Positions 8,172-60,427 are shown, numbered from the stretch's first letter. The stretch is DNA of 64,000 bases from Candidatus Dojkabacteria bacterium (GCA_030583825.1 CP129477.1:758294-822293); one strand, 5' to 3'. The notes: generated by a model not told the origin, from the sequence alone. Program-made: numbers and translations.

Positions 8172-8301
8172 ACAACATACTACCCTACTTTTGCGGAGTT
8201 GTGAAGCATATTCGCAAATGAAAAAGAGATTGCTAGAAGTGATTTTTTCAGTTGGTATTTCAGATTCCTATAAAAATATGGTCGGTGTTATAATGTTTAT
8301 A

Positions 8302-17965: not shown

Positions 17966-17973
17966 AGTTCTTC

Positions 17974-18537
17974 CTATTCAGTAGCACGTCCTTGGTAAGC
18001 GCTTGTTTCTGGGTCAATTTTGACTTTCTCTCCAACGCCGATAAATAAAGGAACCTGCATTTTATGTCCAGTTTCAAGAATTGCGTCTTTCATTGCACCT
18101 GTTGAAGTATTTCCCTTGACTGCGTCGGATGTTTCAATAATTTCAAGAGTTACCTGTGGAGGGAATTTAATCGAAATAAGAGTGTCCATATACATAATAA
18201 TTGTGTATTCTTCTCCTTCTTTCATGAATGGAAGGTATTGCTCTGCGAGTGATCGCTTAAGTTCGTATTGCTCGTAGGTACTTTTGTCCATGAAGAAGAC
18301 ATTGTTGTCGTCAGCATAGACATACTGCATGTTCTGAAAGTTTACTTCCAATTCTTCAACTTTTTCTCCTGATTTGAAGGTAAACGGAACTACTCTTCCA
18401 GAGTTGAGGTTCTTAAGCTTTACGCGTGTAAATGCGGATCCTTTTCCTGGTGAATAAAACTCTGCTTCTGTAATGAAGTTTGGCTCGTTGTTGTACATGA
18501 TGTACATATTCTTACGAATCTGGTCGGTCATTGCCAT
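17974..18537 (-). CDS. efp: elongation factor P
   Basis: 187 aa. Conserved loop SPGKGSAFTRVKLKN containing the modifiable Lys. Three OB/KOW-like domains. Confidence 0.9.
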   Translation of the reverse strand: MAMTDQIRKNMYIMYNNEPNFITEAEFYSPGKGSAFTRVKLKNLNSGRVVPFTFKSGEKVEELEVNFQNMQYVYADDNNVFFMDKSTYEQYELKRSLAEQYLPFMKEGEEYTIIMYMDTLISIKFPPQVTLEIIETSDAVKGNTSTGAMKDAILETGHKMQVPLFIGVGEKVKIDPETSAYQGRATE

Positions 18538-23952: not shown

Positions 23953-24915
23953 ATGACTAATGATAGTGTAGCACAAATCTTTGTAGAGTGTGCCAAAAAA
24001 GCGGGAGTTCCAGTTACAAAAGCAAAAAACTTTGCGAAAGTAATGGACAACCATCCTGTTACAGAGTATTTCCACCGGGCGGTATTCCACGTTGAACCAA
24101 TCCTCTTCGGGCTTGAATCATCTAGCTATGCAGAAGTAGTAAAACCTATTCTTACGCGATTTGCACTTCTTCCCTACTTTGTTTTTCTCGATACGGAGAG
24201 AATTATTTCCAGACAGTTCTTACAGCTATATTCTCAGAATCTTGTGACACGCTTGATTACCATCTCTACACAGGAACAGAAAAAATCCGGCTTACTCTCA
24301 GCAATTGTGGCGAAGCAGGACAAATGGGAAAAAGACTTTTCTCTATGGCTTGGAATGGCATCGCAGTGTTTGGATAAAGATTTTTTGCTCCGAGATCATT
24401 CTCTTGTAACGACGTATATCCAATCTTTTATAAAAAGCTTTACTCATTGCGCAAGTATTTTTGTGGATTTTTTTGTATTGGAATCTTCTCGATATGACCG
24501 TGACATGGCTGTCTCTCTCCGCGATTTACTCGTGTTGGGAATGTATAACCACAGTAAAAGTATGGCAGACGAATTTAGAACGATTATTGTTCGGGCAAAT
24601 ATAAAGGCATTAGAACTCTTTCCAGAGCAGATTTTTACAGATATGTTGGCAAAGATTGCTGAAGAACGATTTCCGCTTTTTGGAGAGTTTTTCTCGCGTA
24701 AATCAAAGGTAACAAAAGACTTTTTAAAGGATTGCAATCGAATGACAGTTCCCGAAACAATGAGCTCGTTTTTTGCGAATGCTCCTGTGAAATCGCTTGA
24801 AAATATTTCTCACGAACTGCTTGATATTAATAAAGATATGGAGCGTCAGTTACTTCGTACAGAATATATCTCTACGCTAGTCCAACTTACGGACGGAATG
24901 TATCCAAAGGATTAA
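23953..24915 (+). CDS. hypothetical protein (about 320 aa)
   Basis: ORF divergent from the GT2 gene. Start at ATG 23953 is preferred because TACAAT lies 6 nt upstream (leaderless pattern). The track start at 23902 would overlap the GT2 start. Confidence 0.45.
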   Translation: MTNDSVAQIFVECAKKAGVPVTKAKNFAKVMDNHPVTEYFHRAVFHVEPILFGLESSSYAEVVKPILTRFALLPYFVFLDTERIISRQFLQLYSQNLVTRLITISTQEQKKSGLLSAIVAKQDKWEKDFSLWLGMASQCLDKDFLLRDHSLVTTYIQSFIKSFTHCASIFVDFFVLESSRYDRDMAVSLRDLLVLGMYNHSKSMADEFRTIIVRANIKALELFPEQIFTDMLAKIAEERFPLFGEFFSRKSKVTKDFLKDCNRMTVPETMSSFFANAPVKSLENISHELLDINKDMERQLLRTEYISTLVQLTDGMYPKD

Positions 24916-27004
24916 ATTTTGCTGCCTGTTCAGTTGCAACCGTAGCCGCCGCTGGCGCAGGTGGTGTTTCGGGGGCTGGAGGCATCTCCGGAATTCCCTG
25001 AGCAGGTACTTGCTCTTGTGGCTCTTGGTCTGAACTTTCTACGCTTTGTGATTCTGGTTGTGTCATCTGTGCAATTGGTGATGCGGCAAATTCTGCTGCG
25101 AATGCTTCCGCTGGTTTTGGTGCTTCTGCAGATCTTTCTGATTTTCCAACGAGTGTGTCAATTGGCGGTAACCCTGCAGTGGTTGGAACAGTATCTTGCT
25201 GCTTTTGCTGAGGTACTGCTGTTACTTCGACTACAGGAGCTACCTGTTGTTGGGATTCTGGGTTTTCGTTTGGTTCTTGCGCGACTTGTTGGCCAGATAA
25301 TTCCGGAGCTTGCTGTGTTGGAGTTGGTATTGCTGGAGGCGGAGGTTCAACTGGTGTTGTGGCGGTAACAGCTTGTGGTGGAACTTCCTGCGCCGGTATC
25401 TGAGGAGTTGTTTCTGGAACAGGAGGCATTTCGGGCATTGCGCCTAGGGGTAAAGGTTGCTCTTGTGGTGTATTTTGTTCCGGTTCGCTAATTCCTGCTA
25501 CTTCGAGCGGGGATGCTGCAAGTTCAGATAATAAGTCAGAAGACTTTCCTACCGGCGATGGAGCTGCTTGCGGTGGTAATGGCACGGCTGCTTGGGTTAG
25601 AGGCATTGGCTGGCTTGATTGAATTGGCGCGTTTATGGGGACTGCAGGCGTTGGTACTGCCTGAGGTGCCGCAGTGGCCATTGGCATGGTAGCAACCGGA
25701 GTTATAGTAGGTACTGGCGTAGGAATTGGAGTACTTGCCGATGATACTCCTGGCACTGGAGCAGGTATAGGTTGAGGTTGGGTTTGCGCAATAGGTGGCA
25801 TTGTGGGAATTGCCTGAGCCGGAGTATTTTGTGTGGGAGTTAGTGACTGTAAAATCTGCTGCGATGACATTGCCGGTGTGGTTGGAGTTACCTGCGGCGC
25901 AGACGTTTGAAATTGACCTTGAATATTTTGCGGTGCCATAGGCTGAGTAGATGCCATCTGCGCTGGCGTCGTATTTATTTGTCCACTCTGTTGATTCTGT
26001 TGAAATCCTTGCTGTGGCAAAGTTTGACCCTGCGGGTATTGTTGTTGTGGATAGCCAGCAATTGGCTGCTGCATTCCTGGATACTGAGGATATGGCGGTG
26101 GAGATTGCTGCCCTTGCGCGGACGTTGGTATCTGTCCACTCGACATTCCCTGTGTTCCCTGCTGGGGAGCTTGCATTTGGGGGAGCTGAGTCATTTGTTG
26201 AGGGTAAGGAATATATCCCGGAGGATATTGTCCTGGCATTGCTGGCATGTTTCCTTGCATAGTACCTGCTCCTGTTGGTACATTTTGCATACCTTGAGGC
26301 ATAGAAGGCGGGACTTGTCCCATTTGTGGATATGGAGATGGGTACATTTGAGGGTATTGTTGCGGATACGCTCCATACGGATATATTGGAGGTGTCATTT
26401 GTGGCATGCCATAAGGATACACTGCTGGCATTTGTCCTTGTTGCTGCATTGGCGAAGTATTTGTTGCGTCGGAAGGCTTTTTAATCGTCTGAATTGGTGA
26501 CGGCTTTTCTTTTAGTTCGGGAAGTACTGCTTCTCCCTCCAGTACTTCCGCTTGAACTGTACCACTACTCTCTTGCGAATCTTGTGAAACATCCTTTTTA
26601 TCTTGTTTCACATTTTCATCGGCTTCTTCGTGCTTGTGTGCGTCTGCCACAAGAGATTTATACGGAAAATCCGTGTTTATTGAATCGCTACTAAATGTCT
26701 TTACATCAGGTTTCACGATCTCGTCTTTTGAAAAGATGTCTTTCGACCGCGAAATATCTCCGCTTAAATCACCATTTGGTGCTTTTGTTGCTTCCTCTTT
26801 TCCTGTAGAAGTATCTCCAGGGAGTGCTGGCAAGCCATGTGGAGCTGGGTTAGGATTTGCTCCGGAGGCAGATGGCTTTGGCTCGTTTTGAGATACTCCA
26901 CTTAATGCTGAACGACCACCTGCGTCAATGACTTCAGGTTTCTTCCCAAGTTTTTCTGCGATGTTTGTTGCTATGTTCGCAAACATCTTGTCAAAGGTGG
27001 CCAT
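24887..27004 (-). CDS. Pro/Gln/Met-rich intrinsically disordered protein (705 aa), no TM or signal peptide
   Basis: Long uninterrupted ORF with extreme low complexity (YPQQYPQMYPSPYPQMGQVPPSMPQGMQ and similar). C-terminal imperfect repeats PQEQ-PEMPP-PET. Antisense ORFs in this region are composition artefacts. Confidence 0.6.
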   Translation of the reverse strand: MATFDKMFANIATNIAEKLGKKPEVIDAGGRSALSGVSQNEPKPSASGANPNPAPHGLPALPGDTSTGKEEATKAPNGDLSGDISRSKDIFSKDEIVKPDVKTFSSDSINTDFPYKSLVADAHKHEEADENVKQDKKDVSQDSQESSGTVQAEVLEGEAVLPELKEKPSPIQTIKKPSDATNTSPMQQQGQMPAVYPYGMPQMTPPIYPYGAYPQQYPQMYPSPYPQMGQVPPSMPQGMQNVPTGAGTMQGNMPAMPGQYPPGYIPYPQQMTQLPQMQAPQQGTQGMSSGQIPTSAQGQQSPPPYPQYPGMQQPIAGYPQQQYPQGQTLPQQGFQQNQQSGQINTTPAQMASTQPMAPQNIQGQFQTSAPQVTPTTPAMSSQQILQSLTPTQNTPAQAIPTMPPIAQTQPQPIPAPVPGVSSASTPIPTPVPTITPVATMPMATAAPQAVPTPAVPINAPIQSSQPMPLTQAAVPLPPQAAPSPVGKSSDLLSELAASPLEVAGISEPEQNTPQEQPLPLGAMPEMPPVPETTPQIPAQEVPPQAVTATTPVEPPPPAIPTPTQQAPELSGQQVAQEPNENPESQQQVAPVVEVTAVPQQKQQDTVPTTAGLPPIDTLVGKSERSAEAPKPAEAFAAEFAASPIAQMTQPESQSVESSDQEPQEQVPAQGIPEMPPAPETPPAPAAATVATEQAAKFNPLDTFRP

Positions 27005-27060
27005 AGGCAGTTTTATCTTTCTTAATCTTTATTCGTATTTTAAGCTAAGGTGAGTCATCG

Positions 27061-30000
27061 TTAGATTGCTCCTCCTTGCGGCTGTGTAGGCTCTGAGTTT
27101 ACGGCTATATCACTTGTGCTAATGCTAGGTGTGCTCGCTGTTAAGTCGCTGATTGCAGATGGAACTGGTAAATCACTAACCGTTGGTGCAGATGGCGACG
27201 ATGGTGCGATATCAGGCTGTACAACTGCTTGTGGTGTGATTGTTGGAGCTGCTACCGGAGAAGCTGGCATTGCCGGAGATGAAGGCTCTGTTACTGGTGT
27301 AGATGCTACGGCAGGCGTTGAAGGGATGGTCGGTGCTGTTTCTGCCAGCTTTGGCTGTTGTGCGATAAAGCCTGAATCTGCTGCTGAAATTGTTGGCTGT
27401 GCTGCAGGTGCAATCGGCGTTGTAACCGAAGCCATTGATGGCGTTAATGGAGTTGTCGGTGTTGGTGCGGGGAATTCCATTGCTGCTGCAGGCTGTGGTG
27501 TTGATGGTTTTTTGCCTCTGCGTGACATTAATCCAATAATAAAGAGGAGAATCAGAATAACGACGACTGCTCCTACTCCACCGAGAATAAATGGAAGATC
27601 TTTGCGGTGAATGTAAATGCCGCTGATTTCAAAAATCGGTGTATTGTCTTCTCCATTGTTGATTTTTTCCTGAGCCAAGAGAATTAATGGTGCGGTGATT
27701 TCGTCAATTGGTGCGTACGCTGCTTTTGCGGCTTCCAAATCGCGAATTGCCCACTGGTAATATCCTTTTGTCAGGTTATCCAATCCTGAGGCAAATGTTG
27801 TCGAAACAGTGCTGACAGAGTTGCTAATATTTTGCTCTGCAATGAATTTTGAAAGCTCTTCGACAGAAACTCCAGCATTATAGTTTTTATCAGTGACACG
27901 TCCGGAAATTCCGTAAGTGCTGACTGCGATAACTCGACCATCGTTATTTACGATTGGCCCACCGCTGTTGCCTGGGCTGATTGTTGCATCAACTTGTACA
28001 AGCTTGAATTGGCTGTTTGCACTTGGCTTGACTGCACTGACTGTTCCTTTCGTGATTGTTGGAATTGTTGTTGCATCATCGGCGAAAAGTGTTTTGTTGT
28101 TTGCAAGTGACGGAAAACCAATTGCATAGACAGTACTTCCTTCAGTAATGGTTTGGTAATTTCCAAGCTGTAATGTTGGGTATTTGCCCTGAGGTGCGGA
28201 AATTTTTAGCAATGCGAGGTCTGGAACATTGACGGTAAACTCTTTTGTTTCTGCACTGGCATCTGCCTGTTTTGCTTTTTGCTGCTCAATGAGAAACTCG
28301 TAGTAGCTTTCAAGCTCTTTTGTTTGAACAAGCTCTGCTTTCAAATATTTAGTAGGATCTTTTGGTTTGAGTGTTGTTGCGTCAATGTCGAATGGTTCTT
28401 CTCCCTGAATATAAGACTCTTGAGAAGTTCTCTCTGCAGTGATTTTGTTTTCAACAAGACCGTAGGCAATAACATCTGATGCAACAGAAGTAATTTGTTT
28501 TTGCACGGTAGGATCGTTTAAGTCAGCGAGTGGGTATTTTGCAATATATGCTCGTGCAACATCTGTAAGAACATCTTTTGCGAAGCCTGCATCGTTACCT
28601 GCATTAAATGCATCCATTGCTGTATCGAAAGAGTTTGGTGCTGCAACATGTGCATTTGTCACAATTACTCCATCTTCGTGGACAAAGAATCCTGTGCCAA
28701 AACCTGCAGTACAAATTTGGTATGTTTTTCGTGATGCTGTTGGAAGAATATCAGGCATTGATACTTTCATGTTTGAGCAAACGCGTGCGAATACTCGAAC
28801 TGTTGCAGTTTTTCCCATAAGCGCTGCTTTTTCAATTGTAAGAGTTGAAGTCGTGGATGCTCCAAGTACTGCAGCATCGTCTGTTGTAATGCCTCCTTGT
28901 GCGAGTGTTCCGCTTCCATTTTCTGCAAGAGCTGGAATAAATGGGTTTGCAGATGTTTGATGTTCAAACTGTAATGAGCCAATAAGCGCCTCGAGATCTT
29001 TTGCTGCGAATGCCGGATCTCCTTTTTTGTCATTATCTTCCATGCGTGATACTCGAATTTGCATGGTTGATGAAGTCGCTGGAGAAAATCCTAAGTATAC
29101 CGTTCTGGTTGTTAAGTACCCTGAAGAAACATAGCTCATTGTGTAACGGATAAACTCTACTCCATTAATAGTTTGCTTTGCTTTATCTTCAAGAAGCTTA
29201 AACTCTTTGTCTTTGTAGGTTTCGCGGTCAAATTCGATATCTTTTTGCATTCGCTCTTCGAGCGCGGACATTTCTTTAAATCCACGGAAGGTTGCTGCCG
29301 AAAATCCTACTGTAATTGAGGGATTTGAGCTATTCTTGGACAAATATGCAAGCGAGAGGCTGGATTCAGTCTGTGAATTTACTGTCCACATTGTTCTGTC
29401 AAAGGAAATTGTCGCTTTTGCATCTTTAATTTGGGCAACAATATTTGCTTCAAGACCTTCTGGCTTTATTACAACAGACTTAAGAATTGCTGTGTAGTCT
29501 TGCAATACCGCGTCTGACACGACGGCTGTTCCCTGTCGTTTAATAACAATTGCTACGTCAGTATCTTTTTCTCTGCGTGTAAGGACGGTTACTTTATATT
29601 CTGTGCTTACTCCCGGCTGAGTAATTGATTCCACAAAGTAGGTAATGGTAAATGAGGTAACTCCTTCGTTTTCAACTTTTTCTGTAAGCTGAGTGCTCTT
29701 ATAAATAGAGGTGTAATAGTTTGAGTAGTATTCATAAAGATCGGCAAATCTTCCTTTGTCGGGAAGTTCCAGTGATGCATACACTTCATAATTTCCGTAT
29801 GGACTGATTAAAACGCTTCGTGAGCTGTCTGAAACAGAAAATCTATCTGCTGAGTATGTAAGAAGAAGATCTAAATTTGGAGAGTAATATTCTTTTGTTC
29901 CGCCTTCTGCGTATACAAGCTGTTTGCTTAATGCATTTTTAACATCCTGATTATCGGTGTCAACAACGATTGTTCCATCTGCGCTTCGCTGTGTAGATAG

Positions 30001-30339
30001 AAGATTTGATTGAACAATGACAGCGATCGGAATTCCAATTGCCGCAAGAAGTAAAATTGCGACAAAAAGCTTTGGTAAAGCTCCTGCAAGGGGGCTTCGT
30101 GAAGCCGAAACTTTCGATGTTGGTGTGTACTTATTTTTTGAGTCTGTAGGCAATGGAGGAAGTGCTCCCGCCATTGATGCGGTTGCGGGCTGAACAGGAG
30201 AAGCAGCTGGAGTTGACGGCATTGTTGCTGCAGGCTGTGTGACTACTGGTACTGGAGCAGGATTAGCTGGCGTAACAGGTGTCGTCGGCGCTGCCGGTGA
30301 ACTACCTGGAAGTGGCGGTAATGTCGTATTCTGCTCCAT
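27061..30339 (-). CDS. membrane-anchored HtrA/DegP-like (S1, trypsin-fold) serine protease with Pro-rich N- and C-terminal tails
   Basis: 1092 aa. Architecture is Pro/Thr-rich N-tail with two LPPLP motifs, TM1, a ~900-aa external region, TM2 (FILGGVGAVVVILILLFIIGLM followed by RRGKK) and a Pro/Ala/Thr-rich C-tail. The protease core shows catalytic His TNAHV and the Ser motif GNSGGP. Confidence 0.75.
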   Translation of the reverse strand: MEQNTTLPPLPGSSPAAPTTPVTPANPAPVPVVTQPAATMPSTPAASPVQPATASMAGALPPLPTDSKNKYTPTSKVSASRSPLAGALPKLFVAILLLAAIGIPIAVIVQSNLLSTQRSADGTIVVDTDNQDVKNALSKQLVYAEGGTKEYYSPNLDLLLTYSADRFSVSDSSRSVLISPYGNYEVYASLELPDKGRFADLYEYYSNYYTSIYKSTQLTEKVENEGVTSFTITYFVESITQPGVSTEYKVTVLTRREKDTDVAIVIKRQGTAVVSDAVLQDYTAILKSVVIKPEGLEANIVAQIKDAKATISFDRTMWTVNSQTESSLSLAYLSKNSSNPSITVGFSAATFRGFKEMSALEERMQKDIEFDRETYKDKEFKLLEDKAKQTINGVEFIRYTMSYVSSGYLTTRTVYLGFSPATSSTMQIRVSRMEDNDKKGDPAFAAKDLEALIGSLQFEHQTSANPFIPALAENGSGTLAQGGITTDDAAVLGASTTSTLTIEKAALMGKTATVRVFARVCSNMKVSMPDILPTASRKTYQICTAGFGTGFFVHEDGVIVTNAHVAAPNSFDTAMDAFNAGNDAGFAKDVLTDVARAYIAKYPLADLNDPTVQKQITSVASDVIAYGLVENKITAERTSQESYIQGEEPFDIDATTLKPKDPTKYLKAELVQTKELESYYEFLIEQQKAKQADASAETKEFTVNVPDLALLKISAPQGKYPTLQLGNYQTITEGSTVYAIGFPSLANNKTLFADDATTIPTITKGTVSAVKPSANSQFKLVQVDATISPGNSGGPIVNNDGRVIAVSTYGISGRVTDKNYNAGVSVEELSKFIAEQNISNSVSTVSTTFASGLDNLTKGYYQWAIRDLEAAKAAYAPIDEITAPLILLAQEKINNGEDNTPIFEISGIYIHRKDLPFILGGVGAVVVILILLFIIGLMSRRGKKPSTPQPAAAMEFPAPTPTTPLTPSMASVTTPIAPAAQPTISAADSGFIAQQPKLAETAPTIPSTPAVASTPVTEPSSPAMPASPVAAPTITPQAVVQPDIAPSSPSAPTVSDLPVPSAISDLTASTPSISTSDIAVNSEPTQPQGGAI

Positions 30340-30672
30340 GCGAAAAATTTCTAATTTAAGTGAAGGATTTTTGATCCATATATTAGTGTCAGTATAGCAA
30401 AAGCACCTGAATGTGAAAAGGAAAATTGAGAGGAAAAGCGAAAGAAAAGTATTATTCTGTTAAGAAAATGATTCTTTTTAAATATACTCTACTTTTACTC
30501 CCAATTCCCGATTCTAATGTTGAGTTAGAAATATTGACGCGAGAACCTCTTTTTAGGTAAAATAAGAATAGTTATTCTATATTGATAGCTGCAAACTGGT
30601 CTGAAGTTGAAATGCAGAAAGGCTCTACTGCGGGGCACTAGTAGACTGAAATCACTTTCAGTATCCAACGTG

Positions 30673-31116
30673 TTACGATGAGGGGGTGCCGTCCCTCCAA
30701 CTCCAGTTCAGTTTATAGTTATTAAAATATTTTTTGTTTCTAACCCGAAAACAAGTTACAAGAAAATATTTTCCTTCAAGCTTTTCTATCGCACAGGTGA
30801 ATATTTGTTCCTTGAAGGTTTTTACAAACAAAAAGTCTCCTCGTTTTTTGTCCTTATTTAAGTATATTTGGTCAGGGTAGCGCACGATGTCAGTCATATT
30901 AAATAGAATAAAGTCGTATTCTTCGGCTGTTCTTTTATCGTAAAGATGCTTTAGCGCTTTTGTTGTCACTACAACTACGAGTTTGTGAGTTTCTGTATTG
31001 TCTAATACATTTCTTACTATTTTTGTGATATAGCAAACGCTTATTTCTGCCAAAGCAACAAATGCATGATACTCTGTTCTGTAAATATATTTCTGATGAA
31101 AAGTTTTTAGCTGCAT
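30673..31116 (-). CDS. hypothetical protein (147 aa)
   Basis: ORF upstream of the HtrA-like gene on the same strand. No motif recognised. Confidence 0.4.
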   Translation of the reverse strand: MQLKTFHQKYIYRTEYHAFVALAEISVCYITKIVRNVLDNTETHKLVVVVTTKALKHLYDKRTAEEYDFILFNMTDIVRYPDQIYLNKDKKRGDFLFVKTFKEQIFTCAIEKLEGKYFLVTCFRVRNKKYFNNYKLNWSWRDGTPSS

Positions 31117-31260
31117 CCGTTATTTTATTGTTGGAATTATGATTAAAAGTTAGTAATTCTTTATGCCTAAACTCCATTAAAGAATGTTGAATCGTGAAAC
31201 TACACAATCTTCAAAACTTATGTTATGCTGTTCACAGTTAATATCTAATGAACTGCCACC

Positions 31261-33282
31261 ATGGATCTGACTGCCCAACTCTCCGCACTTCTCGGGAATA
31301 AACCTGCGTCAGGAGATACTTCTTCGCAGCCTCAAGCAACACCGCCTGTTTTACCGCAGTCACCTGTTTCTTCAACAGCTGCTTCTGTCGCAACACCAGT
31401 TGCTGCAACGGCAGGATCAATTCCATCGGCAATAACAACCCCTGTAAAAGATTCATCAACTCCGACGCTTGCAACGGCTTCTGTGCCAGCACCACAATTG
31501 CCTACCTCTGCAGACACAAATGCACCAGCCTCGCCTGTAAGTACAATAACCGAACCACCGATACCACCAGCCACTGCTCCGATACTTCCACCATTGCCGT
31601 CAACATCTACAGTTTCTTCCTCAACCCCACCTGTGGCTACTGATACACAAAATAAGGATCAGAATACTCCAGCAACCCTTGAGGCAGAAAAGAAGTCAGA
31701 ATTACCACCTCTTCCAGCACAAGCTGCTCCTTTAGAAGATACAAATCAGAATAAAGAGCCAGCCACTTCCTCTCTACCGGAGAAACCAAAGGATCCTGTT
31801 GCAGACTTGCCTACACCTCCACAGCCCCCATTAAGCGATGTCGCAAAAGAAACAAAAAATGAAAATCCTCTTGAAAAAGCTGAAAAGAAAATAGATTCGG
31901 CACTACCTCCGCTTCCTGATACAGCAACACCGAATACATCACCTTCAACACCTCTAGAAGTGGACAAGAAAAATGAGCTTCCTCCCCTTCCGGAGACGAA
32001 AGATCAAATTCAAAAACTTGAAGAGAAGTCATCATCGGCAGAAGTAAAAGAAATAAAAACGGATGTCACAGAGCCTCAAGACGCAAAGCCTGAGGAAAAG
32101 GAAAAAACAGAAATACCAGTAATAGTTGCGCCTGCTAAAACTGAAGAGGCTCCAAAAGCTGAAAAAGTTGCAGTACCTGAATTGCCAAAAGTAGAGCCTC
32201 CAAAGCCAGAACGAAAAATTGATGCTTCAAAAATGAAGTTCTGGGCAGAGTCACAAAAGACTCTTGAAGAACTTGAAAAATCATGGAATGCTCGAGTTAT
32301 TGCTGTATATATTCCAATGAATGGCAAACTTTCAAACGCGACCGTGAACGAAATGCATTACCATGTTTCACGTCTTGGAAAAGAAGGAAAAGTTGACCGC
32401 CTTGCGCTCGTTATTTACGGCCCGGGTGGAAAAGGAACTGCAGCACTACGCTTAGTAAAAATGATCCGCTCGTATGTTAATTACCTGATCGTTGCTGTTC
32501 CAGATATTGCTGCATCGGCAATGACAATGCTTGCTGTTGGCGCAGACCAACTTGTTATGAGTCCAATTGCAATGCTCTCTCCGGTTGATACATCTGTCAC
32601 GCATCCACTTGCTCCACGATCTCATGGGCAATCAAACATGCCAGTTTCAATCGAGATCACACAGATCAAAAAGTATCTTGAAATGGTAAAAGCTGATAAT
32701 TATCATAATTCACCGAATTTTAACGACACAGCAGAGGCAGTTCTGAGCGAACATGTTCACCCAATTGTACTTGGACATATGCAGCGTGCCGCAACGCTTT
32801 CAACAATGATTACAGAAAAGATTCTTTCAATTCACATGAAAGACAAAGCAAAAGTGGCGTTTATTGCAAAAACACTCAGTGAAGAATTTCCGTCACACGA
32901 CTTCCCTATTTTTATGGATGACGTATTGGCAATGGGATTAAACGCATCCGCGATGTCTGCGGAAGATATTGAGAAATGTGCCAGTTTATTTGAATATTAC
33001 AAAGTTCTTACAACCGATGTCTCGTCAGTAGACGGTAACAAAAAACTTATGGTCGCCCGAACTGCGGTTATTGAATCAACAGATTTGCGATCATGGTTCC
33101 ACAACGAAGAAACATTGCAGCAAAAAGAAGATGGTAAATGGACACGTATGTCGGAATATCATGACTTTATGCGTGCGATTCCAATGAAAGTAAAAGAGAA
33201 TGAGTACACTGTTAAGCCCGCAACGTTTGCGCAATTTAAAGAGTGGTTGAAAAACGGCGAGGTTGAGGACAAACAGGCATAG
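31261..33282 (+). CDS. ClpP/SppA-fold serine protease (S49/SDH-like) with 340-aa Pro/Thr/Ser-rich disordered N-terminus carrying four LPPLP motifs
   Basis: 673 aa. C-terminal domain LVIYGPGGKGTAALRLVKMIRSY...IVAVPDIAASAMTMLAVGADQLVMSPIAMLSPVD aligns with the ClpP-family nucleophile-Ser region (AASAM). No TM, so predicted cytoplasmic. Confidence 0.65.
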   Translation: MDLTAQLSALLGNKPASGDTSSQPQATPPVLPQSPVSSTAASVATPVAATAGSIPSAITTPVKDSSTPTLATASVPAPQLPTSADTNAPASPVSTITEPPIPPATAPILPPLPSTSTVSSSTPPVATDTQNKDQNTPATLEAEKKSELPPLPAQAAPLEDTNQNKEPATSSLPEKPKDPVADLPTPPQPPLSDVAKETKNENPLEKAEKKIDSALPPLPDTATPNTSPSTPLEVDKKNELPPLPETKDQIQKLEEKSSSAEVKEIKTDVTEPQDAKPEEKEKTEIPVIVAPAKTEEAPKAEKVAVPELPKVEPPKPERKIDASKMKFWAESQKTLEELEKSWNARVIAVYIPMNGKLSNATVNEMHYHVSRLGKEGKVDRLALVIYGPGGKGTAALRLVKMIRSYVNYLIVAVPDIAASAMTMLAVGADQLVMSPIAMLSPVDTSVTHPLAPRSHGQSNMPVSIEITQIKKYLEMVKADNYHNSPNFNDTAEAVLSEHVHPIVLGHMQRAATLSTMITEKILSIHMKDKAKVAFIAKTLSEEFPSHDFPIFMDDVLAMGLNASAMSAEDIEKCASLFEYYKVLTTDVSSVDGNKKLMVARTAVIESTDLRSWFHNEETLQQKEDGKWTRMSEYHDFMRAIPMKVKENEYTVKPATFAQFKEWLKNGEVEDKQA

Positions 33283-33304: not shown

Positions 33305-33817
33305 TTAACTTTCTTCGGGTTTTATTGTACTCTGGAAAAAACTTGAGCAAATATCTTTATAAACTTGAAAAGATTGAACTTCTCCTAGCCCAGCAATTAA
33401 TAGTGCTAGATTATATAGTGCAACAAGATAGGGGACGTTTAGTCGCTTATCGCTTTCTATTTCTTCAATTCCCATAAAAGCTTTAAGGATTTGCACATGA
33501 TTATTAATTTTATCTAGCTTGAAGAAATATTTGTTCTTAAAGAAAAACCAAAATGTAATCATTATACCCAGGCGTTTATTTCCATTTGAAAAATAATGCC
33601 CTTTTATAATAGCTGTAAATAAATAACCTGCTTTATCATATATTGTTGGATAGTAATCATTATTCTTTGCTAATTGTAATACGCCATTCAATCTCTTAAA
33701 TCCTTCCTGGTCTGCTCCATAATCAATTGCTGGGTTATCCGGACTATCTAATATTTCTTTAATATATTGAAAAATGAACTCTAAATCAGCTTCATTAATA
33801 TAGGAAATTTTCCTCAT
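33305..33817 (-). CDS. Fic/Doc family protein (death-on-curing-like toxin)
   Basis: 170 aa containing HYFSNGNKR, the Doc variant of the Fic motif (HPFVDGNKR in Doc). Confidence 0.7.
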   Translation of the reverse strand: MRKISYINEADLEFIFQYIKEILDSPDNPAIDYGADQEGFKRLNGVLQLAKNNDYYPTIYDKAGYLFTAIIKGHYFSNGNKRLGIMITFWFFFKNKYFFKLDKINNHVQILKAFMGIEEIESDKRLNVPYLVALYNLALLIAGLGEVQSFQVYKDICSSFFQSTIKPEES

Positions 33818-33960
33818 TTTTCAGACAAGACAATCAATAATGGACGAAAAGTATCTATCATTTTTTTGATTTTTTTCTGAGAAGAGGCTTTAGAAGTAAT
33901 GACTTTTCTTAAGTCAGTAAGATTAGGATGCGCTTTCTCTTTTGGCTTGTTAATTGTCAT
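33814..33960 (-). CDS. small Lys-rich protein (48 aa), putative antitoxin partner of the Doc-like gene
   Basis: Hand-translated MTINKPKEKAHPNLTDLRKVITSKASSQKKIKKMIDTFRPLLIVLSEK. Its stop overlaps the Doc start by ATGA. TGATATAAT lies 5 nt upstream of its ATG. Not in the ORF track because it is under 60 aa. Confidence 0.4.
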   Translation of the reverse strand: MTINKPKEKAHPNLTDLRKVITSKASSQKKIKKMIDTFRPLLIVLSEK

Positions 33961-34004: not shown

Positions 34005-36689
34005 CTACGCTTCCACGACCTTTGCCTCAGTGACTTCTCCTCCGCAGAGTGATGTCACAAGCGTGGTAAGCTCCTGCAATGCTTTTTCAATAGCAGAGCT
34101 TTCAATTCCTGGATAGCCATCAATAAAAAGAATGACATTTTCAGTATCGTTCGTTATTTTTGTTCGATCTGAATCACGATAGTTCAAATTCAGGCAAATC
34201 ACACCCTTTTGGTCAGCATAGACAAGAGATCCACTTTTTGCAGTCTCCGGTTCGCTTTCGCCGATTTTATACATAGTTTCATTGTCAGCGGCATAACGAA
34301 GCGTTATTGGTTTTGAAACTGTGTCGTAGTCGTATGCAGCCATTGGAAGTCCAAGCTCGATTGACTTGATATTGTAAGAATCAACAAGGTTATTCACGTT
34401 ATACAAGTCTTTGCCTGCAACAATTCTGCGAATCAATGCCTCTGCACTATTTAACGTGCTGTCAGGGTCTGCTCCGAATGCTTTGTACATATCCCGAATT
34501 TGAGAGATACTCGCAATTTTCTTAACTTCTGCAGGAGTTGAGTACTGTCCTCGAACTTTTGCTGTAATTTCGTCTCGAAATGTAGTAAATATTTCACTTT
34601 TCAAGTGAGAGCCTTTTTCGATTTTGATATTTTTTACAACTGCGTATCCAACTTTAAATCCTGGAAAGTTTTGGGAAACAGCAGGATCAATTTGCAATAC
34701 TGTCCCACTTTTAGGCGAGTCAGATAACGAAGAGGAACTATCTTTTCCTGGTTGTTCTGGTATAGCGCTATTTTTAAAGACAAACTCCTGCCCTTCCTTT
34801 CCGGTATACTTTTCTGGATCCAGAATCATAATGCCTTCTGCATCGGTGCCGAGACTAAGTTCTTTTGCGGAACAAAGCATTCCTTCTGATTTAACTCCAC
34901 GCATATTGCGATGAGTAATCACCAGAGCATTGCCATCTTTGCCTTTCATTGTTTCGATCTTTGCACCTTCCAAAGCAACAGGAACATAATCTCCTACGCG
35001 AATATTGTGGGCTCCGGTAATAATTTGTAGCACGTTTGGAAATGTCGTACCTGATGGTTTTGATCGCTTTACATTCACTTTTGTTACTAACAATTTGTCA
35101 GCATTTGGGTGCATTGCAATCTCGACGATTTGGCCAACAACAAAGCGTGATTCTGGCATTGTATTGGTTTCTGTAAACAATTCCGGGTAAATTTCTTTTG
35201 TAATTTCTTCGGTCTCATGGCGCATCTGCGGGAAGATTGTTCCTTCTCGTGCGGTAATGTCTTCAAAAAACCAGAAAATTCTTTCACTGTGGCCATACCC
35301 ACATGTTGGAGGCATGCCATATTCAAGCATTTCGCAAAAGTCTACATCAAGCATTTGTGCTTCGTCGTCGCCAGAATCACGAAGGCTCTGCTGGTCAAGA
35401 AAGCTTTGCAACTGATCCAACGGATCGTTCTTTTCTGAATAGCCATTACCAAGTTCGCTTCCCGCAAGAATGACATGAAAACGCTCTGTAACCAATGGAT
35501 TATCGGGTTTTGCTTTTGCAAGCGGTGACATAAACATTGGCTCATTAATCAAAAATGCCGGGCCGGAGAGTGTTTTTCGAATAAGTTTCCACAAATTGTC
35601 AATCATTCTGTTGCGGTTTACGTGGCCACTGGAAAGGTCAACCCCTTCTTTTTCGATAACTTTTGCAATTTTTTCATCCGAGTCGGCAAAGATATCAACG
35701 TCGAAGCGCTCTTTAATGATGCCGGCATAGTCAATTGTTTGCCATTCGTCTGCGAGATCAAAGCTGTGTCCTCGAGTTGAAAACTTCGTGGTTCCGTATA
35801 CTTCATTTGCGACATAGCGGAACATTTCCTTTGTTAGTTGCATTCCTTCGTTATAGTCGGCATATGCCCAATACCACTCAAGCTGGTAGTATTCCTGCAA
35901 GTGCTCGTCGCTGATCCCTTCGTTTCGGAAGTTTGGAGCAAGTGTGTAAATTTTCTCGTATCCTGCGCCAATTAAGCGTTTTTGATACAGCTCTGTGGAG
36001 ATTCTCAAGAAAAAGTCTTGGTCTAAATCGTTGTGATGAGTAATAAATGGTCGAGCGTCTGCTCCACCGGTAACGTGCTCAAGTACCGGAGTTTCCACTT
36101 CTATAAAGCCATTCATTTTCATAAACTCACGGTTTGCTGCCCAGAATTTTGCTTTTCGTTCAAATCGCTCTTTTATTCCCGGAGTGACCATAATGTCCAA
36201 ATAGCGGCGCCGAAACCGTTGTTCTTTGTCCAGAAGTTTCCGTGGCGCTGGTCGTAAGGATTTTGTAAGAAGCACAATGCCTGTCACTAGAAGGGATACC
36301 TCTCCACGTTGGGTTTTTGTAACAGTTCCTGTCGCCTGAATAAAGTCACCATCGTCTAAAAGTTCAAGCTCTTCCCATCCGAGAATGCTTTTTGACAAAT
36401 CACTTTTGATTGTGTCGTCTTTTATGTAAAGCTGGATTTTGCCAGTTTGGTCGGTTAAGTCCATAAATACAATTTTGCCGTGATCGCGTCTGGAAGTAAT
36501 ACGTCCTGCAAGGGTAACGGTTTTTTCTGCGTGTGTTTCGTAGTGTTCGGTAATTTCTGCCTGAGAATATTCTTTTACAGATCGTGCGGGAAATGGATCA
36601 ATGCCAAGTGACTTCAACTTCTTCAGCTTGAGCATACGTTCATTGCGTTGGCCGATAAGAGAGCTGGTCAGTTCTACACTGTCTGACAT
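34005..36689 (-). CDS. lysS: lysyl-tRNA synthetase (class II) fused to C-terminal tRNA-binding (EMAP/Trbp111-like) and B3/4-like domains
   Basis: 894 aa. N-terminal OB anticodon-binding domain plus class II core (FRNEGISDEHLQEYYQLEWY, GYGHSERIFWF). Residues about 520-640 carry MHPNADKLLV...GMLCSAKELSLG, typical of the tRNA_bind OB domain. The remainder resembles the PheT B3/4 domain. Confidence 0.85.
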   Translation of the reverse strand: MSDSVELTSSLIGQRNERMLKLKKLKSLGIDPFPARSVKEYSQAEITEHYETHAEKTVTLAGRITSRRDHGKIVFMDLTDQTGKIQLYIKDDTIKSDLSKSILGWEELELLDDGDFIQATGTVTKTQRGEVSLLVTGIVLLTKSLRPAPRKLLDKEQRFRRRYLDIMVTPGIKERFERKAKFWAANREFMKMNGFIEVETPVLEHVTGGADARPFITHHNDLDQDFFLRISTELYQKRLIGAGYEKIYTLAPNFRNEGISDEHLQEYYQLEWYWAYADYNEGMQLTKEMFRYVANEVYGTTKFSTRGHSFDLADEWQTIDYAGIIKERFDVDIFADSDEKIAKVIEKEGVDLSSGHVNRNRMIDNLWKLIRKTLSGPAFLINEPMFMSPLAKAKPDNPLVTERFHVILAGSELGNGYSEKNDPLDQLQSFLDQQSLRDSGDDEAQMLDVDFCEMLEYGMPPTCGYGHSERIFWFFEDITAREGTIFPQMRHETEEITKEIYPELFTETNTMPESRFVVGQIVEIAMHPNADKLLVTKVNVKRSKPSGTTFPNVLQIITGAHNIRVGDYVPVALEGAKIETMKGKDGNALVITHRNMRGVKSEGMLCSAKELSLGTDAEGIMILDPEKYTGKEGQEFVFKNSAIPEQPGKDSSSSLSDSPKSGTVLQIDPAVSQNFPGFKVGYAVVKNIKIEKGSHLKSEIFTTFRDEITAKVRGQYSTPAEVKKIASISQIRDMYKAFGADPDSTLNSAEALIRRIVAGKDLYNVNNLVDSYNIKSIELGLPMAAYDYDTVSKPITLRYAADNETMYKIGESEPETAKSGSLVYADQKGVICLNLNYRDSDRTKITNDTENVILFIDGYPGIESSAIEKALQELTTLVTSLCGGEVTEAKVVEA

Positions 36690-40978: not shown

Positions 40979-41143
40979 GAGGTTATCTCCGTATATGTAC
41001 AAAGTTCGAATATGTATTATATCATACTATAGGTCTTCTATACACTCCCCTATCCACTATCTCTCCTCTTGCCACATCCCCATACAAACGCTACTATCTT
41101 GTAATACATATTTTTGGTTCGCGTAACTTAATTCGCATACATA

Positions 41144-53791: not shown

Positions 53792-53882
53792 ATCTTAATT
53801 ATACTACACATTATATTGTCATCTTCGATTTTCAAATATGAGGTTGCGAGAAAAAAAATAATTCACTATACTGTTCCTGAGC

Positions 53883-58857: not shown

Positions 58858-58925
58858 CGCTAATCCCTAGTTTCTTTTGACAGTGAAAGGTTGACGTAGG
58901 CGTTTTTTTTAGGCATTATTATGGT

Positions 58926-60425: not shown

Positions 60426-60427
60426 GT

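What the first reader, a model, noticed from the sequence alone, without database searches (positions are those of the whole stretch)
24887..33282. Cluster of proteases with giant proline-rich disordered tails and a recurrent LPPLP motif, plus a 705-aa Pro/Gln-rich IDP
Seen in sequence:
- A two-TM HtrA-like S1 protease has Pro-rich N-terminal (about 100 aa) and C-terminal (about 170 aa) tails. Both are predicted cytoplasmic by the positive-inside rule.
- The adjacent 705-aa protein is almost entirely P/Q/M-rich low complexity without TM or signal peptide.
- The divergently encoded ClpP/S49-fold protease has a 340-aa Pro/Thr/Ser N-terminal region.
- The exact pentapeptide LPPLP occurs 4 times in the ClpP-like protein (ILPPLPS, ELPPLPA, ALPPLPD, ELPPLPE) and twice in the HtrA-like N-tail (TLPPLPG, ALPPLPT).

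Inference:
- Repeated short linear motifs in IDRs of co-located proteases suggest a shared docking partner, possibly the PQ-rich protein, or a polyproline-binding scaffold.
- This would be an unusual proteolytic assembly for a bacterium.
Basis: partly seen in the sequence, partly recalled or inferred. Interest (0 to 1): 0.6.

Follow-up and report, generated by a model that had tools for sequence, protein, structure and literature searches.

The report
Conserved LPPLP motif on protease tails
In an uncultivated ultra-small (CPR, Dojkabacteria) bacterium, a membrane protease, its co-transcribed proline-rich partner and a neighbouring ClpP-like protease carry long disordered cytoplasmic tails bearing a short LPPLP motif that is far too frequent and too well conserved to be chance, so it is probably a docking site for a binding partner that has not been identified.

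Summary
The window (Candidatus Dojkabacteria MAG) encodes three proteins. One is a 1092-aa two-TM HtrA-type S1 protease with disordered tails. One is a 705-aa Pro/Gln-rich protein with no known domain. One, divergently encoded, is a 673-aa ClpP/SppA-fold "SDH" protease with a ~315-aa disordered N-tail.

LPPLP occurs 4+2 times against ~0.01 expected per tail (p<5e-5). It occurs in no other reading frame of a real gene in the 64 kb.

It behaves as a selected short linear motif:
- Codons differ between copies.
- Flanks diverge while the core stays invariant down to 32-39% identity.
- PP dipeptides are otherwise depleted in several of the tails.
- Across 122 family representatives it appears 9 times in tails and never in ectodomains.
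- It moves between module proteins. Where the protease has no tails and the SDH homologue is a pseudoprotease, the partner protein carries two copies.

All carriers are predicted cytoplasmic.

The PQ-rich protein is more likely a fellow client than the receptor.

This is a new variant of known protease families with an undescribed bacterial PPII motif. Interest is moderate.

The parts
27061..30339 (-). 1092-aa two-TM HtrA-type (S1, Trypsin_2) protease with an extracytoplasmic catalytic domain and two cytoplasmic disordered tails
   Evidence: Pfam PF13365, E=1.2e-26. Triad H564/D707/S792 and C521/C543 are invariant in 40 homologues. AF2 model plus Foldseek give Deg1/DegQ/AlgW/DegS as top hits. 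TM and charge analysis.
30070..30339 (-). Protease N-tail (aa 1-90), disordered, 23% Pro, predicted cytoplasmic
   Evidence: pLDDT<50 over most of aa 1-84. Net +3 charge before TM1.
30307..30321 (-). LPPLP copy 1 of the protease (aa 7-11, TLPPLPG)
   Evidence: The same N-terminal position carries the motif in L003, P0014, P0017, P0018 and P0024, and LPPIP in P0019.
30148..30162 (-). LPPLP copy 2 of the protease (aa 60-64, ALPPLPT), ~27 aa before TM1
   Evidence: Conserved in the L005 fragment (NLPPLPT). Degenerate in L003 (LPPLT).
30013..30069 (-). TM1 of the protease (aa 91-109)
   Evidence: Hydropathy 3.07. Helix 88-120 in the AF2 model.
27835..28842 (-). HtrA-type protease domain (aa ~500-835) with a helical insertion; no PDZ domain follows
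27535..27591 (-). TM2 of the protease (aa 917-935)
   Evidence: Hydropathy 3.19, followed by RRGKK. Helix 912-939.
27064..27534 (-). Protease C-tail (aa 936-1092), disordered, 20% Pro, with no PP dipeptide at all
   Evidence: Low pLDDT: block means below 50 from aa ~941 to the C-terminus. PP count 0 against 5.9 expected, p<2e-4.
24887..27004 (-). 705-aa disordered Pro/Gln-rich protein, downstream of the protease on the same strand (56-bp gap). It is the orthologue of single-pass membrane proteins in other lineages.
   Evidence: No Pfam or NCBIfam hit. Same gene order in L003, L009, L010 and L016, with gaps of 21, -4, 16 and 1 bp. Conserved islands.
26942..27004 (-). N-terminal amphipathic helix of the 705-aa protein (aa 1-21, MATFDKMFANIATNIAEKLGK). 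It takes the place of the TM anchor found in orthologues.
   Evidence: Hydrophobic moment 0.45, in the top 1-2% of shuffles. Near-identical in L003. Orthologues L10_339, L9_340 and L16_309 have a TM helix instead.
26630..26752 (-). Conserved island of the 705-aa protein (aa 85-125, SRSKDIFSKDEIVKPD...INTDFPYKSLV); it matches L3_IDP541 and L10_339 by BLAST and reaches L9_340 and L16_309 through them
   Evidence: BLAST matches between the window protein, L3, L10, L9 and L16 proteins
24890..24916 (-). Conserved extreme C-terminal motif FNPLDTFRP (FNPLDTLLP, FNPTDPIIP and YSPTDPLLP in orthologues)
31261..33282 (+). 673-aa ClpP/SppA-fold SDH-type serine protease with a ~315-aa disordered N-tail and no TM or signal peptide, divergent from the protease gene
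   Evidence: PF01972. AF2 plus Foldseek give SppA/ClpP. Closest PDB sequence is PH1510-N (NfeD). Orthologues.
31261..31302 (+). N-terminal peptide MDLTAQLSALLGNK, near-invariant in four lineages (identical in three; one substitution, S8A, in L10_630)
   Evidence: Identical in the window protein, P0002 and P0003; L10_630 differs by S8A and after Lys14. Helix 4-10 in AF2. Not significantly amphipathic.
31585..31599 (+). LPPLP copy 1 of the SDH protease (aa 109)
31702..31716 (+). LPPLP copy 2 of the SDH protease (aa 148); aligned with LPPLP in P0002 and P0003
31903..31917 (+). LPPLP copy 3 of the SDH protease (aa 215)
31978..31992 (+). LPPLP copy 4 of the SDH protease (aa 240); aligned with LPPLP in P0002
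32215..33279 (+). Folded ClpP-like domain (aa 319-673): nucleophile motif AAS419AM, invariant H448, helical lid and a C-terminal beta-rich subdomain (aa 587-654)
23953..24915 (+). 320-aa protein of unknown function, convergent with the 705-aa gene and positionally conserved in all syntenic loci. It evolves fast. Whether it belongs to the module is uncertain.
   Evidence: Only 39% identity between the window and L003, against 79-81% for the protease.

Best explanation
LPPLP is a selected short linear motif of the polyproline-II hydrophobic-P-x-hydrophobic-P type. It sits on the cytoplasmic disordered tails of a membrane-associated protease module found in a Dojkabacteria-related CPR clade.

**The module**
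- A two-TM HtrA-type protease. Its catalytic ectodomain faces outward and both tails face the cytoplasm.
- A co-transcribed proline-rich protein, tethered to the membrane by a TM helix or, in this genome, by an amphipathic helix.
- In some lineages, a divergently encoded cytoplasmic ClpP/SppA-fold (SDH-type) protease or pseudoprotease, held on a ~300-400-aa disordered leash behind a near-invariant N-terminal peptide.

**Proposed mechanism**
- The motif copies act as interchangeable, multivalent docking sites for one conserved cytoplasmic reader that has not been identified.
- Because any polypeptide of the module can present the site, the motif has moved between the three proteins during evolution.

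**Shown versus inferred**
- Shown: the motif, its statistics, its conservation, its restriction to tails, the protein folds and the gene order.
- Inferred: the topology, the docking function and the existence of a reader.
For: **Excess over chance**
- 4 and 2 copies against 0.011 and 0.004 expected; none of 20,000 shuffles reached the observed counts.
- In 122 two-TM family representatives there are 9 copies in 13.5k tail residues and none in 82k ectodomain residues. Shuffled tails give a mean of 0.08 and a maximum of 2.
- LPPLP is the most recurrent 5-mer in the tails of the cluster proteins.

**Selection at the protein level**
- Copies use different Leu and Pro codons.
- The five core residues are invariant in 24 instances, while the flanks vary.
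- PP dipeptides are depleted in several of the tails: 0 against 5.9 expected in the protease C-tail, and 2 against 9 in L10_630.
- The only two PP dipeptides in the whole 1092-aa protease lie inside LPPLP.

**Conservation with mobility**
- The motif is retained in SDH orthologues at 58% and 32% identity.
- It is retained in protease homologues at 31-37% identity: P0014, P0017, P0018, P0024 and P0050. It occurs in N-tails and in C-tails.
- In L010 the protease has no tails and the SDH homologue has no LPPLP and no catalytic Ser. There the partner protein ends with two LPPLP copies.
- In L009 and L016 both the protease and the partner protein carry one copy.

**Same compartment**
- Positive-inside charges place the protease tails and the partner protein's Pro-rich region in the cytoplasm.
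- The SDH protein has no TM or signal peptide.
- An invariant Cys pair sits in the ectodomain.

**Operon**
- The protease and partner genes are separated by 56, 21, 16, 1 or -4 bp.
Against: - No reader protein was found.
- AF2 did not dock any LPPLP or the N-terminal helix onto the SDH domain.
- Most members of the protease family have Pro-rich tails without LPPLP.
- LPPLP-bearing homologues P0018, P0024 and P0050 are not next to SDH or partner genes.
- More distant SDH homologues (36-40% identity) have short tails without the motif.
- Topology rests on hydropathy and charge only.
- The whole proteome of the organism could not be examined. Only the 64-kb window and ~200 kb of related loci were available.
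- No LPPLP ligand system turned up for bacteria: none of the 19 papers containing 'LPPLP' has a title or abstract concerning such a system.
Confidence: 0.5

Rival explanations
1. The motif has no dedicated reader. LPPLP elements are 'stickers' in otherwise inert proline-rich spacers. They drive weak multivalent self-association, such as clustering or condensate formation at the membrane, among the three disordered proteins. The P/Q/Y/M-rich core of the 705-aa protein would contribute to this.
For: - All three proteins are largely disordered and multivalent.
- The 705-aa protein has a Q/P/G/M/Y-rich, uncharged core (aa 181-340) of the kind seen in phase-separating domains.
- The motif can sit on any of the partners.
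Against: - Strict invariance of all five residues over deep divergence is more typical of recognition by a folded pocket than of generic stickiness.
- The Q/Y-rich composition is not conserved in the orthologues.
- Some carriers have only one copy.
Confidence: 0.15
2. LPPLP is a recognition or processing site, or a degron, for a protease. That protease could be the neighbouring SDH-type enzyme or another one. The tails would then be trimmed or the proteins turned over in a regulated way.
For: - The motif is found on and next to proteases.
- SppA-type and NfeD-type relatives of the SDH domain cleave membrane-proximal peptides. This is known for the families matched.
- The SDH domain sits on a long leash near the membrane.
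Against: - X-Pro-Pro bonds are poor substrates for most serine proteases.
- In L010 the SDH homologue has lost its catalytic Ser, yet LPPLP is retained on the partner protein.
- LPPLP-bearing homologues exist without a neighbouring SDH gene.
Confidence: 0.1
3. LPPLP acts at the level of translation. The diprolyl would cause EF-P-dependent ribosome pausing that tunes expression or co-translational membrane targeting, especially just after the start codon of the protease.
For: - In six lineages (five with LPPLP, one with LPPIP) the protease motif lies at codons 5-18.
- PP is otherwise avoided in several tails.
- EF-P and an EpmA-like gene lie ~7 kb away, both here and in L010.
Against: - Pausing would not require both Leu residues and the third Pro to be invariant.
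- Copies occur at the extreme C-terminus (L10_339 ends with LPPLPTQQ).
- Copies occur in C-tails after both TM helices and as four spaced copies in a soluble protein.
Confidence: 0.1
4. One reading: the 705-aa PQ-rich protein is the receptor that binds the LPPLP tails of the two proteases.
For: - It is co-located with the protease and lies directly downstream on the same strand.
- It contains conserved islands that could be binding sites.
Against: - Its orthologues carry LPPLP themselves.
- No known domain matches it.
- The PQ-rich composition is not conserved.
- LPPLP-bearing protease homologues occur without such a neighbour.
Confidence: 0.05
5. The motif is a by-product of composition, codon bias or DNA repeats.
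For: The regions are Pro-rich and of low complexity.
Against: - Shuffles give an expectation of ~0.01 per tail.
- Other Pro-rich regions in the window lack the motif.
- Codons differ between copies.
- The motif is conserved across lineages.
Confidence: 0.02

Closest known systems
HtrA/DegP/DegS family (MEROPS S1C) membrane-anchored or periplasmic serine proteases
   Same: - Chymotrypsin-fold protease domain with an intact His-Asp-Ser triad.
- Best structural matches are Deg1, DegQ, AlgW and DegS.
- Predicted extracytoplasmic catalytic domain.
   Different: - No PDZ domain.
- Two TM helices bracket an ~800-aa ectodomain that also holds two alpha/beta domains of unknown function, a helical insertion and a helical bundle.
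- Long disordered cytoplasmic tails at both ends.
- NCBIfam Do-family score is 72 against a cut-off of 416.
SDH-type ClpP-like serine proteinases (Pfam PF01972, MEROPS S49 neighbourhood), SppA and NfeD/PH1510-N
   Same: - ClpP/crotonase-type fold.
- GPGG and AAS(419)AM nucleophile motifs.
- Passes the Pfam gathering score.
- SppA, ClpP and PH1510-N are the closest structures.
   Different: - A ~315-aa disordered N-tail with four LPPLP copies behind a near-invariant 14-aa N-terminal peptide.
- An extra helical lid and a beta-rich C-terminal subdomain.
- No TM segment.
- Far below the NCBIfam equivalog cut-off (46.9 against 250).
Eukaryotic SH3-domain (and class II WW-domain) ligands, e.g. the RPLPPLP class I Src-SH3 consensus and the LPPLP motif of TOM1L1
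   Same: - Identical hydrophobic-P-x-hydrophobic-P core presented in a disordered region, often in several copies.
- Lys at +2 (LPPLPxK) in 6 of 24 instances, resembling class II ligands.
- The eukaryotic examples come from my own knowledge and from the titles retrieved.
   Different: - A bacterial cytoplasm, with no SH3, WW or EVH1 reader identified.
- Flanking basic residues are not consistently present.
- The resemblance is a lead, not a demonstrated mechanism.
Bacterial proteins with a membrane anchor plus a P/Q-rich linker, such as ZipA (also the FtsK, FtsN and TonB linkers)
   Same: - Orthologues of the 705-aa protein have an N-terminal TM helix (N-out/C-in), followed by a charged segment and a long Pro-rich cytoplasmic region.
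   Different: - No C-terminal globular domain; the protein ends in short conserved motifs.
- No sequence similarity.
- In this genome the TM helix is replaced by an amphipathic helix.
Known bacterial short linear motifs in disordered tails (FtsZ C-terminal peptide, SSB C-terminal tip, beta-clamp-binding motif, GpsB-binding motifs of PBP tails)
   Same: - A short invariant peptide inside a fast-evolving disordered tail.
- It is shared by several client proteins.
   Different: - A different sequence class (PPII rather than amphipathic or acidic).
- The carriers are proteases and their partner.

Membership tests
HtrA/DegP (S1C) proteases | Chymotrypsin-fold protease domain with a His-Asp-Ser triad | tested here: met
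   PF13365 E=1.2e-26. H564, D707 and S792 are invariant in 40 homologues. Foldseek top hits are all HtrA family.
HtrA/DegP (S1C) proteases | One or two C-terminal PDZ domains | tested here: not met
   No PDZ hit in Pfam at E<=0.01. The protease domain is followed by a helical bundle and TM2.
HtrA/DegP (S1C) proteases | Reaches the curated family score (NCBIfam TIGR02037 Do family) | tested here: not met
   72.1 bits against a cut-off of 416.2; only the C-terminal half of the protease domain aligns.
HtrA/DegP (S1C) proteases | Extracytoplasmic location of the catalytic domain | tested here: inconclusive
   The positive-inside rule and an invariant Cys pair point to it. There is no experimental or dedicated topology prediction.
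SDH-type ClpP-like serine proteinase (PF01972) | Passes the Pfam gathering score | tested here: met
   38.7 bits against 31.3. Homologues P0001-P0010 carry precomputed PF01972.
SDH-type ClpP-like serine proteinase (PF01972) | ClpP/SppA fold with the nucleophile Ser at the N-terminus of the core helix | tested here: met
   AF2 pLDDT is ~90 for aa 320-673. SppA (4kwb, 3rst) and ClpP are the top Foldseek hits. AAS419AM is invariant and aligns with the AASAG segment of PH1510-N, which holds that enzyme's catalytic Ser (Ser97, from my own knowledge of the published structure).
SDH-type ClpP-like serine proteinase (PF01972) | NCBIfam equivalog NF047768 cut-off | tested here: not met
   46.9 bits against 250. 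It is a divergent subfamily.
SDH-type ClpP-like serine proteinase (PF01972) | Identity of the general base (His/Asp triad or Lys dyad) and proteolytic activity | not testable with these tools
   H448 and D443 are invariant but lie in a low-confidence loop (aa 444-468). An enzymatic assay is needed.
SH3-type (PxxP) ligand motif | Hydrophobic-P-x-hydrophobic-P core in a disordered region | tested here: met
   24 instances of L-P-P-L-P, all in predicted disordered tails.
SH3-type (PxxP) ligand motif | Basic residue at the class I (-3) or class II (+2) position | tested here: inconclusive
   K at +2 in 6 of 24 instances. K at -3 to -5 in about half. Neither is consistent.
SH3-type (PxxP) ligand motif | Binding to an SH3 or other PPII-binding domain encoded by the same organism | not testable with these tools
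   Only 64 kb of the 1.09-Mb genome is available. No SH3, WW or EVH1 hit appeared among the window proteins scanned.
ZipA-like anchor plus P/Q-linker proteins | N-terminal TM anchor followed by charged and Pro-rich cytoplasmic regions | tested here: met
   Met in orthologues L9_340, L10_339 and L16_309. The window protein has an amphipathic helix instead.
ZipA-like anchor plus P/Q-linker proteins | C-terminal globular FtsZ-binding domain | tested here: not met
   No domain hit. The protein is of low complexity through to its C-terminus.

The most novel reading that the evidence does not exclude
A clade of CPR bacteria may use a eukaryote-like system built on a polyproline-II motif and a matching reader domain.

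- A conserved but unrecognised cytoplasmic PPII-binding protein would read LPPLP sites on the tails of an outward-facing HtrA-type protease, on its membrane-tethered partner and on a leashed ClpP-fold protease.
- This would physically couple extracytoplasmic and cytoplasmic proteolysis into one trans-membrane relay, or position the module at a specific cell site such as a host-attachment or division site.
Probability: 0.15. Interest if true: 0.75.

Novelty: new variant of a known kind. Interest (0 to 1): 0.5.

Why it matters
Short linear motifs read by dedicated domains organise much of eukaryotic cell biology. Few are known in bacteria, and my literature search found none described for the candidate phyla radiation (CPR), whose cell biology is almost unexplored.

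This finding offers a concrete, experimentally tractable motif:
- It has five invariant residues.
- There are 24 independent instances.
- All instances sit on cytoplasmic tails of a membrane protease module.

The motif can be used as bait to fish out an unknown partner. If a reader exists, it would reveal how an extracytoplasmic protease is wired to the cytoplasm in ultra-small bacteria. It would also add a PPII-type recognition system to the bacterial repertoire.

The way the motif moves between subunits is also a clean natural example of how short linear motifs evolve within a complex.

Tried and rejected
**Searches that returned nothing**
- A scan of genome contigs with the SDH alignment found no relative.
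- A scan of metagenome contigs with the same alignment found no relative.
- Orthologous loci therefore had to be reached through exact-protein look-ups.
- The first full-length homologue search was swamped by low-complexity words and gave only 3 hits. It was repeated with the folded domain alone.

- The FKBP-type prolyl isomerase at 14014-14538 was considered because FKBPs prefer Leu-Pro. It has an N-terminal TM anchor and is probably extracytoplasmic. Rejected.
- The conserved neighbour of 320 aa (23953-24915) evolves much faster than the motif carriers: 39% against 79-81% identity. It is barely alignable in L009 and L010. Deprioritised.
- The SDH protein's own beta-rich C-terminal subdomain is also present in homologues without LPPLP. 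AF2 did not dock the tail onto it. Not supported.

**Other ideas tested**
- The SDH N-terminal peptide as an amphipathic membrane anchor: its hydrophobic moment is not above that of shuffles. Specific docking is more likely.
- A DNA-repeat origin for the motif: rejected because codons differ between copies.
- Sortase or LPxTG-type sorting signals: the motif is not followed by a C-terminal TM helix, and the window's large unknown proteins have no LPxTG.

**Literature**
- Searches for LPPLP in bacteria and for disordered or Pro-rich proteins in Patescibacteria found nothing relevant.

**Promoter and terminator scan**
- The scan of the region gave no more sites than shuffled sequence.

Full report
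**Source and gene content**

The 673-aa protein is identical to a protein of a Candidatus Dojkabacteria (CPR) MAG, on a 1.09-Mb contig. The same locus is found in two read-archive assemblies.

The region holds these genes:
- 24887-27004(-): a 705-aa protein with no family hit.
- 27061-30339(-): a 1092-aa Trypsin_2 protease.
- 30673-31116(-): a small PBECR-type nuclease-like gene.
- 31261-33282(+): a 673-aa PF01972 'SDH' ClpP-like protease.
- 33305-33817(-): a Fic/Doc gene.

**Check of the observation**

The protease:
- It has two hydrophobic helices, at aa 91-109 and 917-935.
- Positive charges lie on the N-side of the first helix and the C-side of the second.
- The 90-aa N-tail and the 157-aa C-tail are therefore predicted cytoplasmic, and the ~800-aa middle part extracytoplasmic.
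- An AF2 model built on 40 homologues gives pLDDT<50 for most of both tails and confident structure in between.

The 673-aa protein:
- It has no TM segment.
- AF2 gives pLDDT<50 for nearly all of aa 12-315, with a short helix at aa 4-10, and a confident fold for aa 320-673.

The 705-aa protein:
- It is 18% Pro and 13% Gln, with no TM helix.
- It is not uniform. Aa 1-180 are charged and contain conserved islands. Aa 181-340 are Q/P/G/M/Y-rich and uncharged. Aa 341-480 are P/Q/T/A-rich. Aa 481-705 are acidic.

LPPLP:
- It occurs at exactly the six stated positions.
- The only other six-frame occurrence in the window is in an antisense frame.

**Is it more than chance?**

- Composition-preserving shuffles of each tail give 0.011 and 0.004 expected copies, against 4 and 2 observed. 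None of 20,000 shuffles reached the observed counts.
- Five other Pro-rich segments in the window, with up to 35% Pro in 60 aa, have no copy.
- The copies are encoded with different Leu and Pro codons, so they are not DNA repeats.
- PP dipeptides are depleted in several of the tails. The protease C-tail has 0 against 5.9 expected (p<2e-4). L10_630 has 2 against 9.0. The 705-aa protein has 15 against 22.4.
- The only two PP dipeptides in the whole 1092-aa protease are those inside LPPLP.

The motif is therefore kept against a background that avoids its central dipeptide.

**Related loci**

Exact-protein look-ups gave syntenic loci from other metagenomes. The gene order kept in L003, L009, L010 and L016 is: LysRS (not seen in L009, whose contig ends upstream), SDH-like gene (divergent, in some lineages), protease, Pro-rich protein, unknown ~250-340-aa protein (convergent), GT2 (L003 and L009), amine-oxidase-like gene, GT1.

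The protease and the Pro-rich gene are separated by 56, 21, 16, 1 or -4 bp. They are very probably co-transcribed and, in L009, translationally coupled.

The PBECR and Fic/Doc genes are absent from L003, so they are insertions rather than parts of the module.

**Conservation of the motif**

In SDH orthologues at 58% and 32% identity, the tail sequence is otherwise barely alignable. LPPLP is nevertheless kept at aligned positions (three and two copies). The first 16 residues, MDLTAQLSALLGNKPA, are identical.

The fragment of the divergent protease in L005 keeps NLPPLPT about 25 aa before TM1.

An exhaustive profile-free search with the protease core found 104 cluster representatives below 1e-30. 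Among the 150 best-scoring representatives, 122 have the two-TM architecture.
- Their C-tails range from 9 to 404 aa and are mostly P/Q/T/V-rich.
- LPPLP occurs in P0014, P0017, P0018, P0024 and P0050, and LPPIP in P0019. These share 31-37% identity with the window protein.
- The motif lies either within the first 5-18 residues or in the C-tail, and never in the ectodomain.
- Overall there are 9 copies in 13.5k tail residues and 0 in 82k ectodomain residues. Shuffled tails give a mean of 0.08 and a maximum of 2.

Finding the same motif in both N-tails and C-tails independently supports the two tails sharing one compartment.

**The motif moves between module proteins**

In L010:
- The protease (39-41% identity) has essentially no tails.
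- The SDH homologue keeps the N-terminal peptide (MDLTAQLAALLGNK, one substitution) and a ~395-aa disordered tail, but it has no LPPLP.
- That homologue has also lost GPGG, the nucleophile (AASAM replaced by LTGMM) and the segment containing the invariant His. It is therefore probably a pseudoprotease.
- The orthologue of the 705-aa protein is a 339-aa single-pass membrane protein with a positively charged C-side. It ends with NLPPLPD...TLPPLPTQQ.

In L009 and L016, both the protease N-tail and the TM-anchored partner carry one copy each.

In the window and in L003, the partner has only degenerate versions (LPALP, LPPID/LPPLE), and the proteases carry the canonical copies.

In the loci examined, at least one LPPLP is kept on the cytoplasmic face of the module, while the polypeptide that carries it changes. 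This is typical of a short linear motif that recruits something to a complex. It also argues against the PQ-rich protein being the receptor.

**What the proteins are**

The protease:
- Its domain has the invariant triad H564/D707/S792 and an invariant Cys pair, C521/C543.
- Its best structural matches are HtrA-family enzymes.
- It has no PDZ domain and lies far below curated HtrA cut-offs.
- The ectodomain also contains two alpha/beta domains (aa 123-455), a disordered linker, a helical insertion and a helical bundle before TM2.

The SDH domain:
- It has the ClpP/SppA fold.
- It has an invariant AAS419AM motif that aligns with the AASAG segment of PH1510-N, which holds that enzyme's catalytic Ser.
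- Its more distant homologues (36-40% identity, P0004-P0010) have short tails, no LPPLP and no MDLTAQ peptide, and they are not next to a protease.
- The long LPPLP tail is therefore a clade-specific addition.

The 705-aa protein:
- Its N-terminal helix is significantly amphipathic (hydrophobic moment 0.45, top 1-2% of shuffles).
- It occupies the place of the TM helix in the orthologues, so a peripheral membrane tether is a reasonable inference.
- The protein also has conserved islands and a conserved extreme C-terminal motif, [FY][NS]P[LT]D..P.

The SDH N-terminal peptide is not particularly amphipathic but is near-invariant across the four lineages. This fits a specific docking peptide better than a lipid anchor.

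**Most likely mechanism**

Shown:
- A selected, mobile, tail-restricted motif.
- The protein folds.
- The gene order and the close spacing of the protease and partner genes (operon inferred).

Inferred:
- LPPLP is a PPII-type site read by a conserved cytoplasmic protein that was not identified.
- Multivalent display on the protease tails, the tethered partner and the leashed ClpP-like (pseudo)protease serves to cluster, localise or regulate the module.

The core is identical to the classical SH3-ligand core (own knowledge). Lys at +2 occurs in 6 of 24 instances. No SH3, WW or EVH1-type domain was seen among the window proteins that were scanned against Pfam, and the rest of the genome was not available.

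**Rivals**

- Reader-less self-association.
- A processing site or degron.
- EF-P-dependent translational pausing. The N-terminal position in the protease and the nearby EF-P/EpmA genes fit this. The invariance of both Leu residues and the copies at C-termini do not.
- The PQ-rich protein as receptor.
- A compositional artefact, which is refuted.

**Comparison with known systems and novelty**

Each enzyme is a divergent member of a known superfamily: an HtrA-type S1 protease without PDZ, and a PF01972/S49-like ClpP fold. The partner resembles anchor-plus-P/Q-linker proteins such as ZipA, but only in layout.

No paper in the searched library has a title or abstract pointing to a bacterial LPPLP motif. 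The finding is therefore a new variant of known kinds, with a candidate new bacterial short linear motif.

It is a solid lead of moderate interest. Its value depends on whether a reader exists.

Noticed in passing
window 30673-31116 (-): A 147-aa PBECR2/3-like (barnase/EndoU/colicin-E5/RelE-type nuclease) gene sits in the divergent intergenic region between the two protease genes. It is absent from the orthologous locus L003, where that spacer is only 163 bp. It is therefore likely a recent insertion of a toxin-like gene. No obvious antitoxin ORF was found.
   Followed up: partly
window 33305-33960 (-): A Fic/Doc-family toxin gene (170 aa) lies after a 48-aa ORF (33814-33960) that may be its antitoxin. 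The pair sits between the SDH protease and LysRS. In L003 a NYN-domain gene occupies this position. This looks like a variable slot for toxin-antitoxin-like or mobile genes.
   Followed up: partly
window 16886-18537 (-); L010 19526-22532: Elongation factor P (17974-18537) and a 359-aa class II tRNA-synthetase-like gene (16886-17965) lie ~7 kb from the Pro-rich cluster. The second gene resembles an EpmA/PoxA-type EF-P lysyl-transferase. The same pair lies at a similar distance in L010. This may be plain synteny, but EF-P is the factor needed to translate PP motifs.
   Followed up: partly
proteins P0113, P0129, P0138, P0139, P0143, P0159, P0161, P0162 (homologues of window 27061-30339): A different subclade of the same two-TM protease family carries another conserved cytoplasmic motif, PHHAKPYRKRH, immediately before TM1. 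Clade-specific conserved peptides in the N-tail seem to be a general feature of this family.
   Followed up: partly
L010 7926-9818 (-): The SDH-like orthologue in the lineage with the tail-less protease has lost GPGG, the nucleophile Ser and the His-containing segment. It keeps the N-terminal MDLTAQLAALLGNK peptide (one substitution) and a ~395-aa disordered tail. It is a probable pseudoprotease kept for a scaffolding role.
   Followed up: yes
window 34005-36689 (-): The lysyl-tRNA synthetase is 894 aa. It carries a tRNA_bind domain plus a B3_4 domain (normally found in the PheRS beta subunit) at its C-terminus. The orthologues in L003 and L010 are ~640 aa and lack B3_4. An ArgRS with B3_4 and tRNA_bind domains is seen in L007.
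   Followed up: no
window 53093-63805: A sortase gene (53093-53791) has a TM anchor and a Pro-rich linker. It is followed by four large proteins (544, 1117, 499 and 1125 aa) with signal or anchor sequences and no family hit. Two of them are paralogues ending in ...RCG(T/A)SSHPVC. None has an LPxTG signal.
   Followed up: partly
window 3544-7521 (-) and 8065-9441 (+): A 1325-aa protein has no family hit and a Gly/Arg/Gln-rich C-terminus. It lies next to a tyrosine recombinase with a ~100-aa N-terminal extension. The local G+C content is higher (0.45) than in the rest of the window (~0.40).
   Followed up: no
window 40226-41002 (-): A second, small (258-aa) trypsin-like protein (PF00089, E=3.5e-6) is encoded 10 kb downstream. 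It was not examined further.
   Followed up: no
window 27061-30339 (-), aa 123-455: The N-terminal half of the protease ectodomain folds into two alpha/beta domains with confident AF2 structure but no Pfam match. Their function was not explored; substrate or host-surface recognition is one possibility.
   Followed up: no
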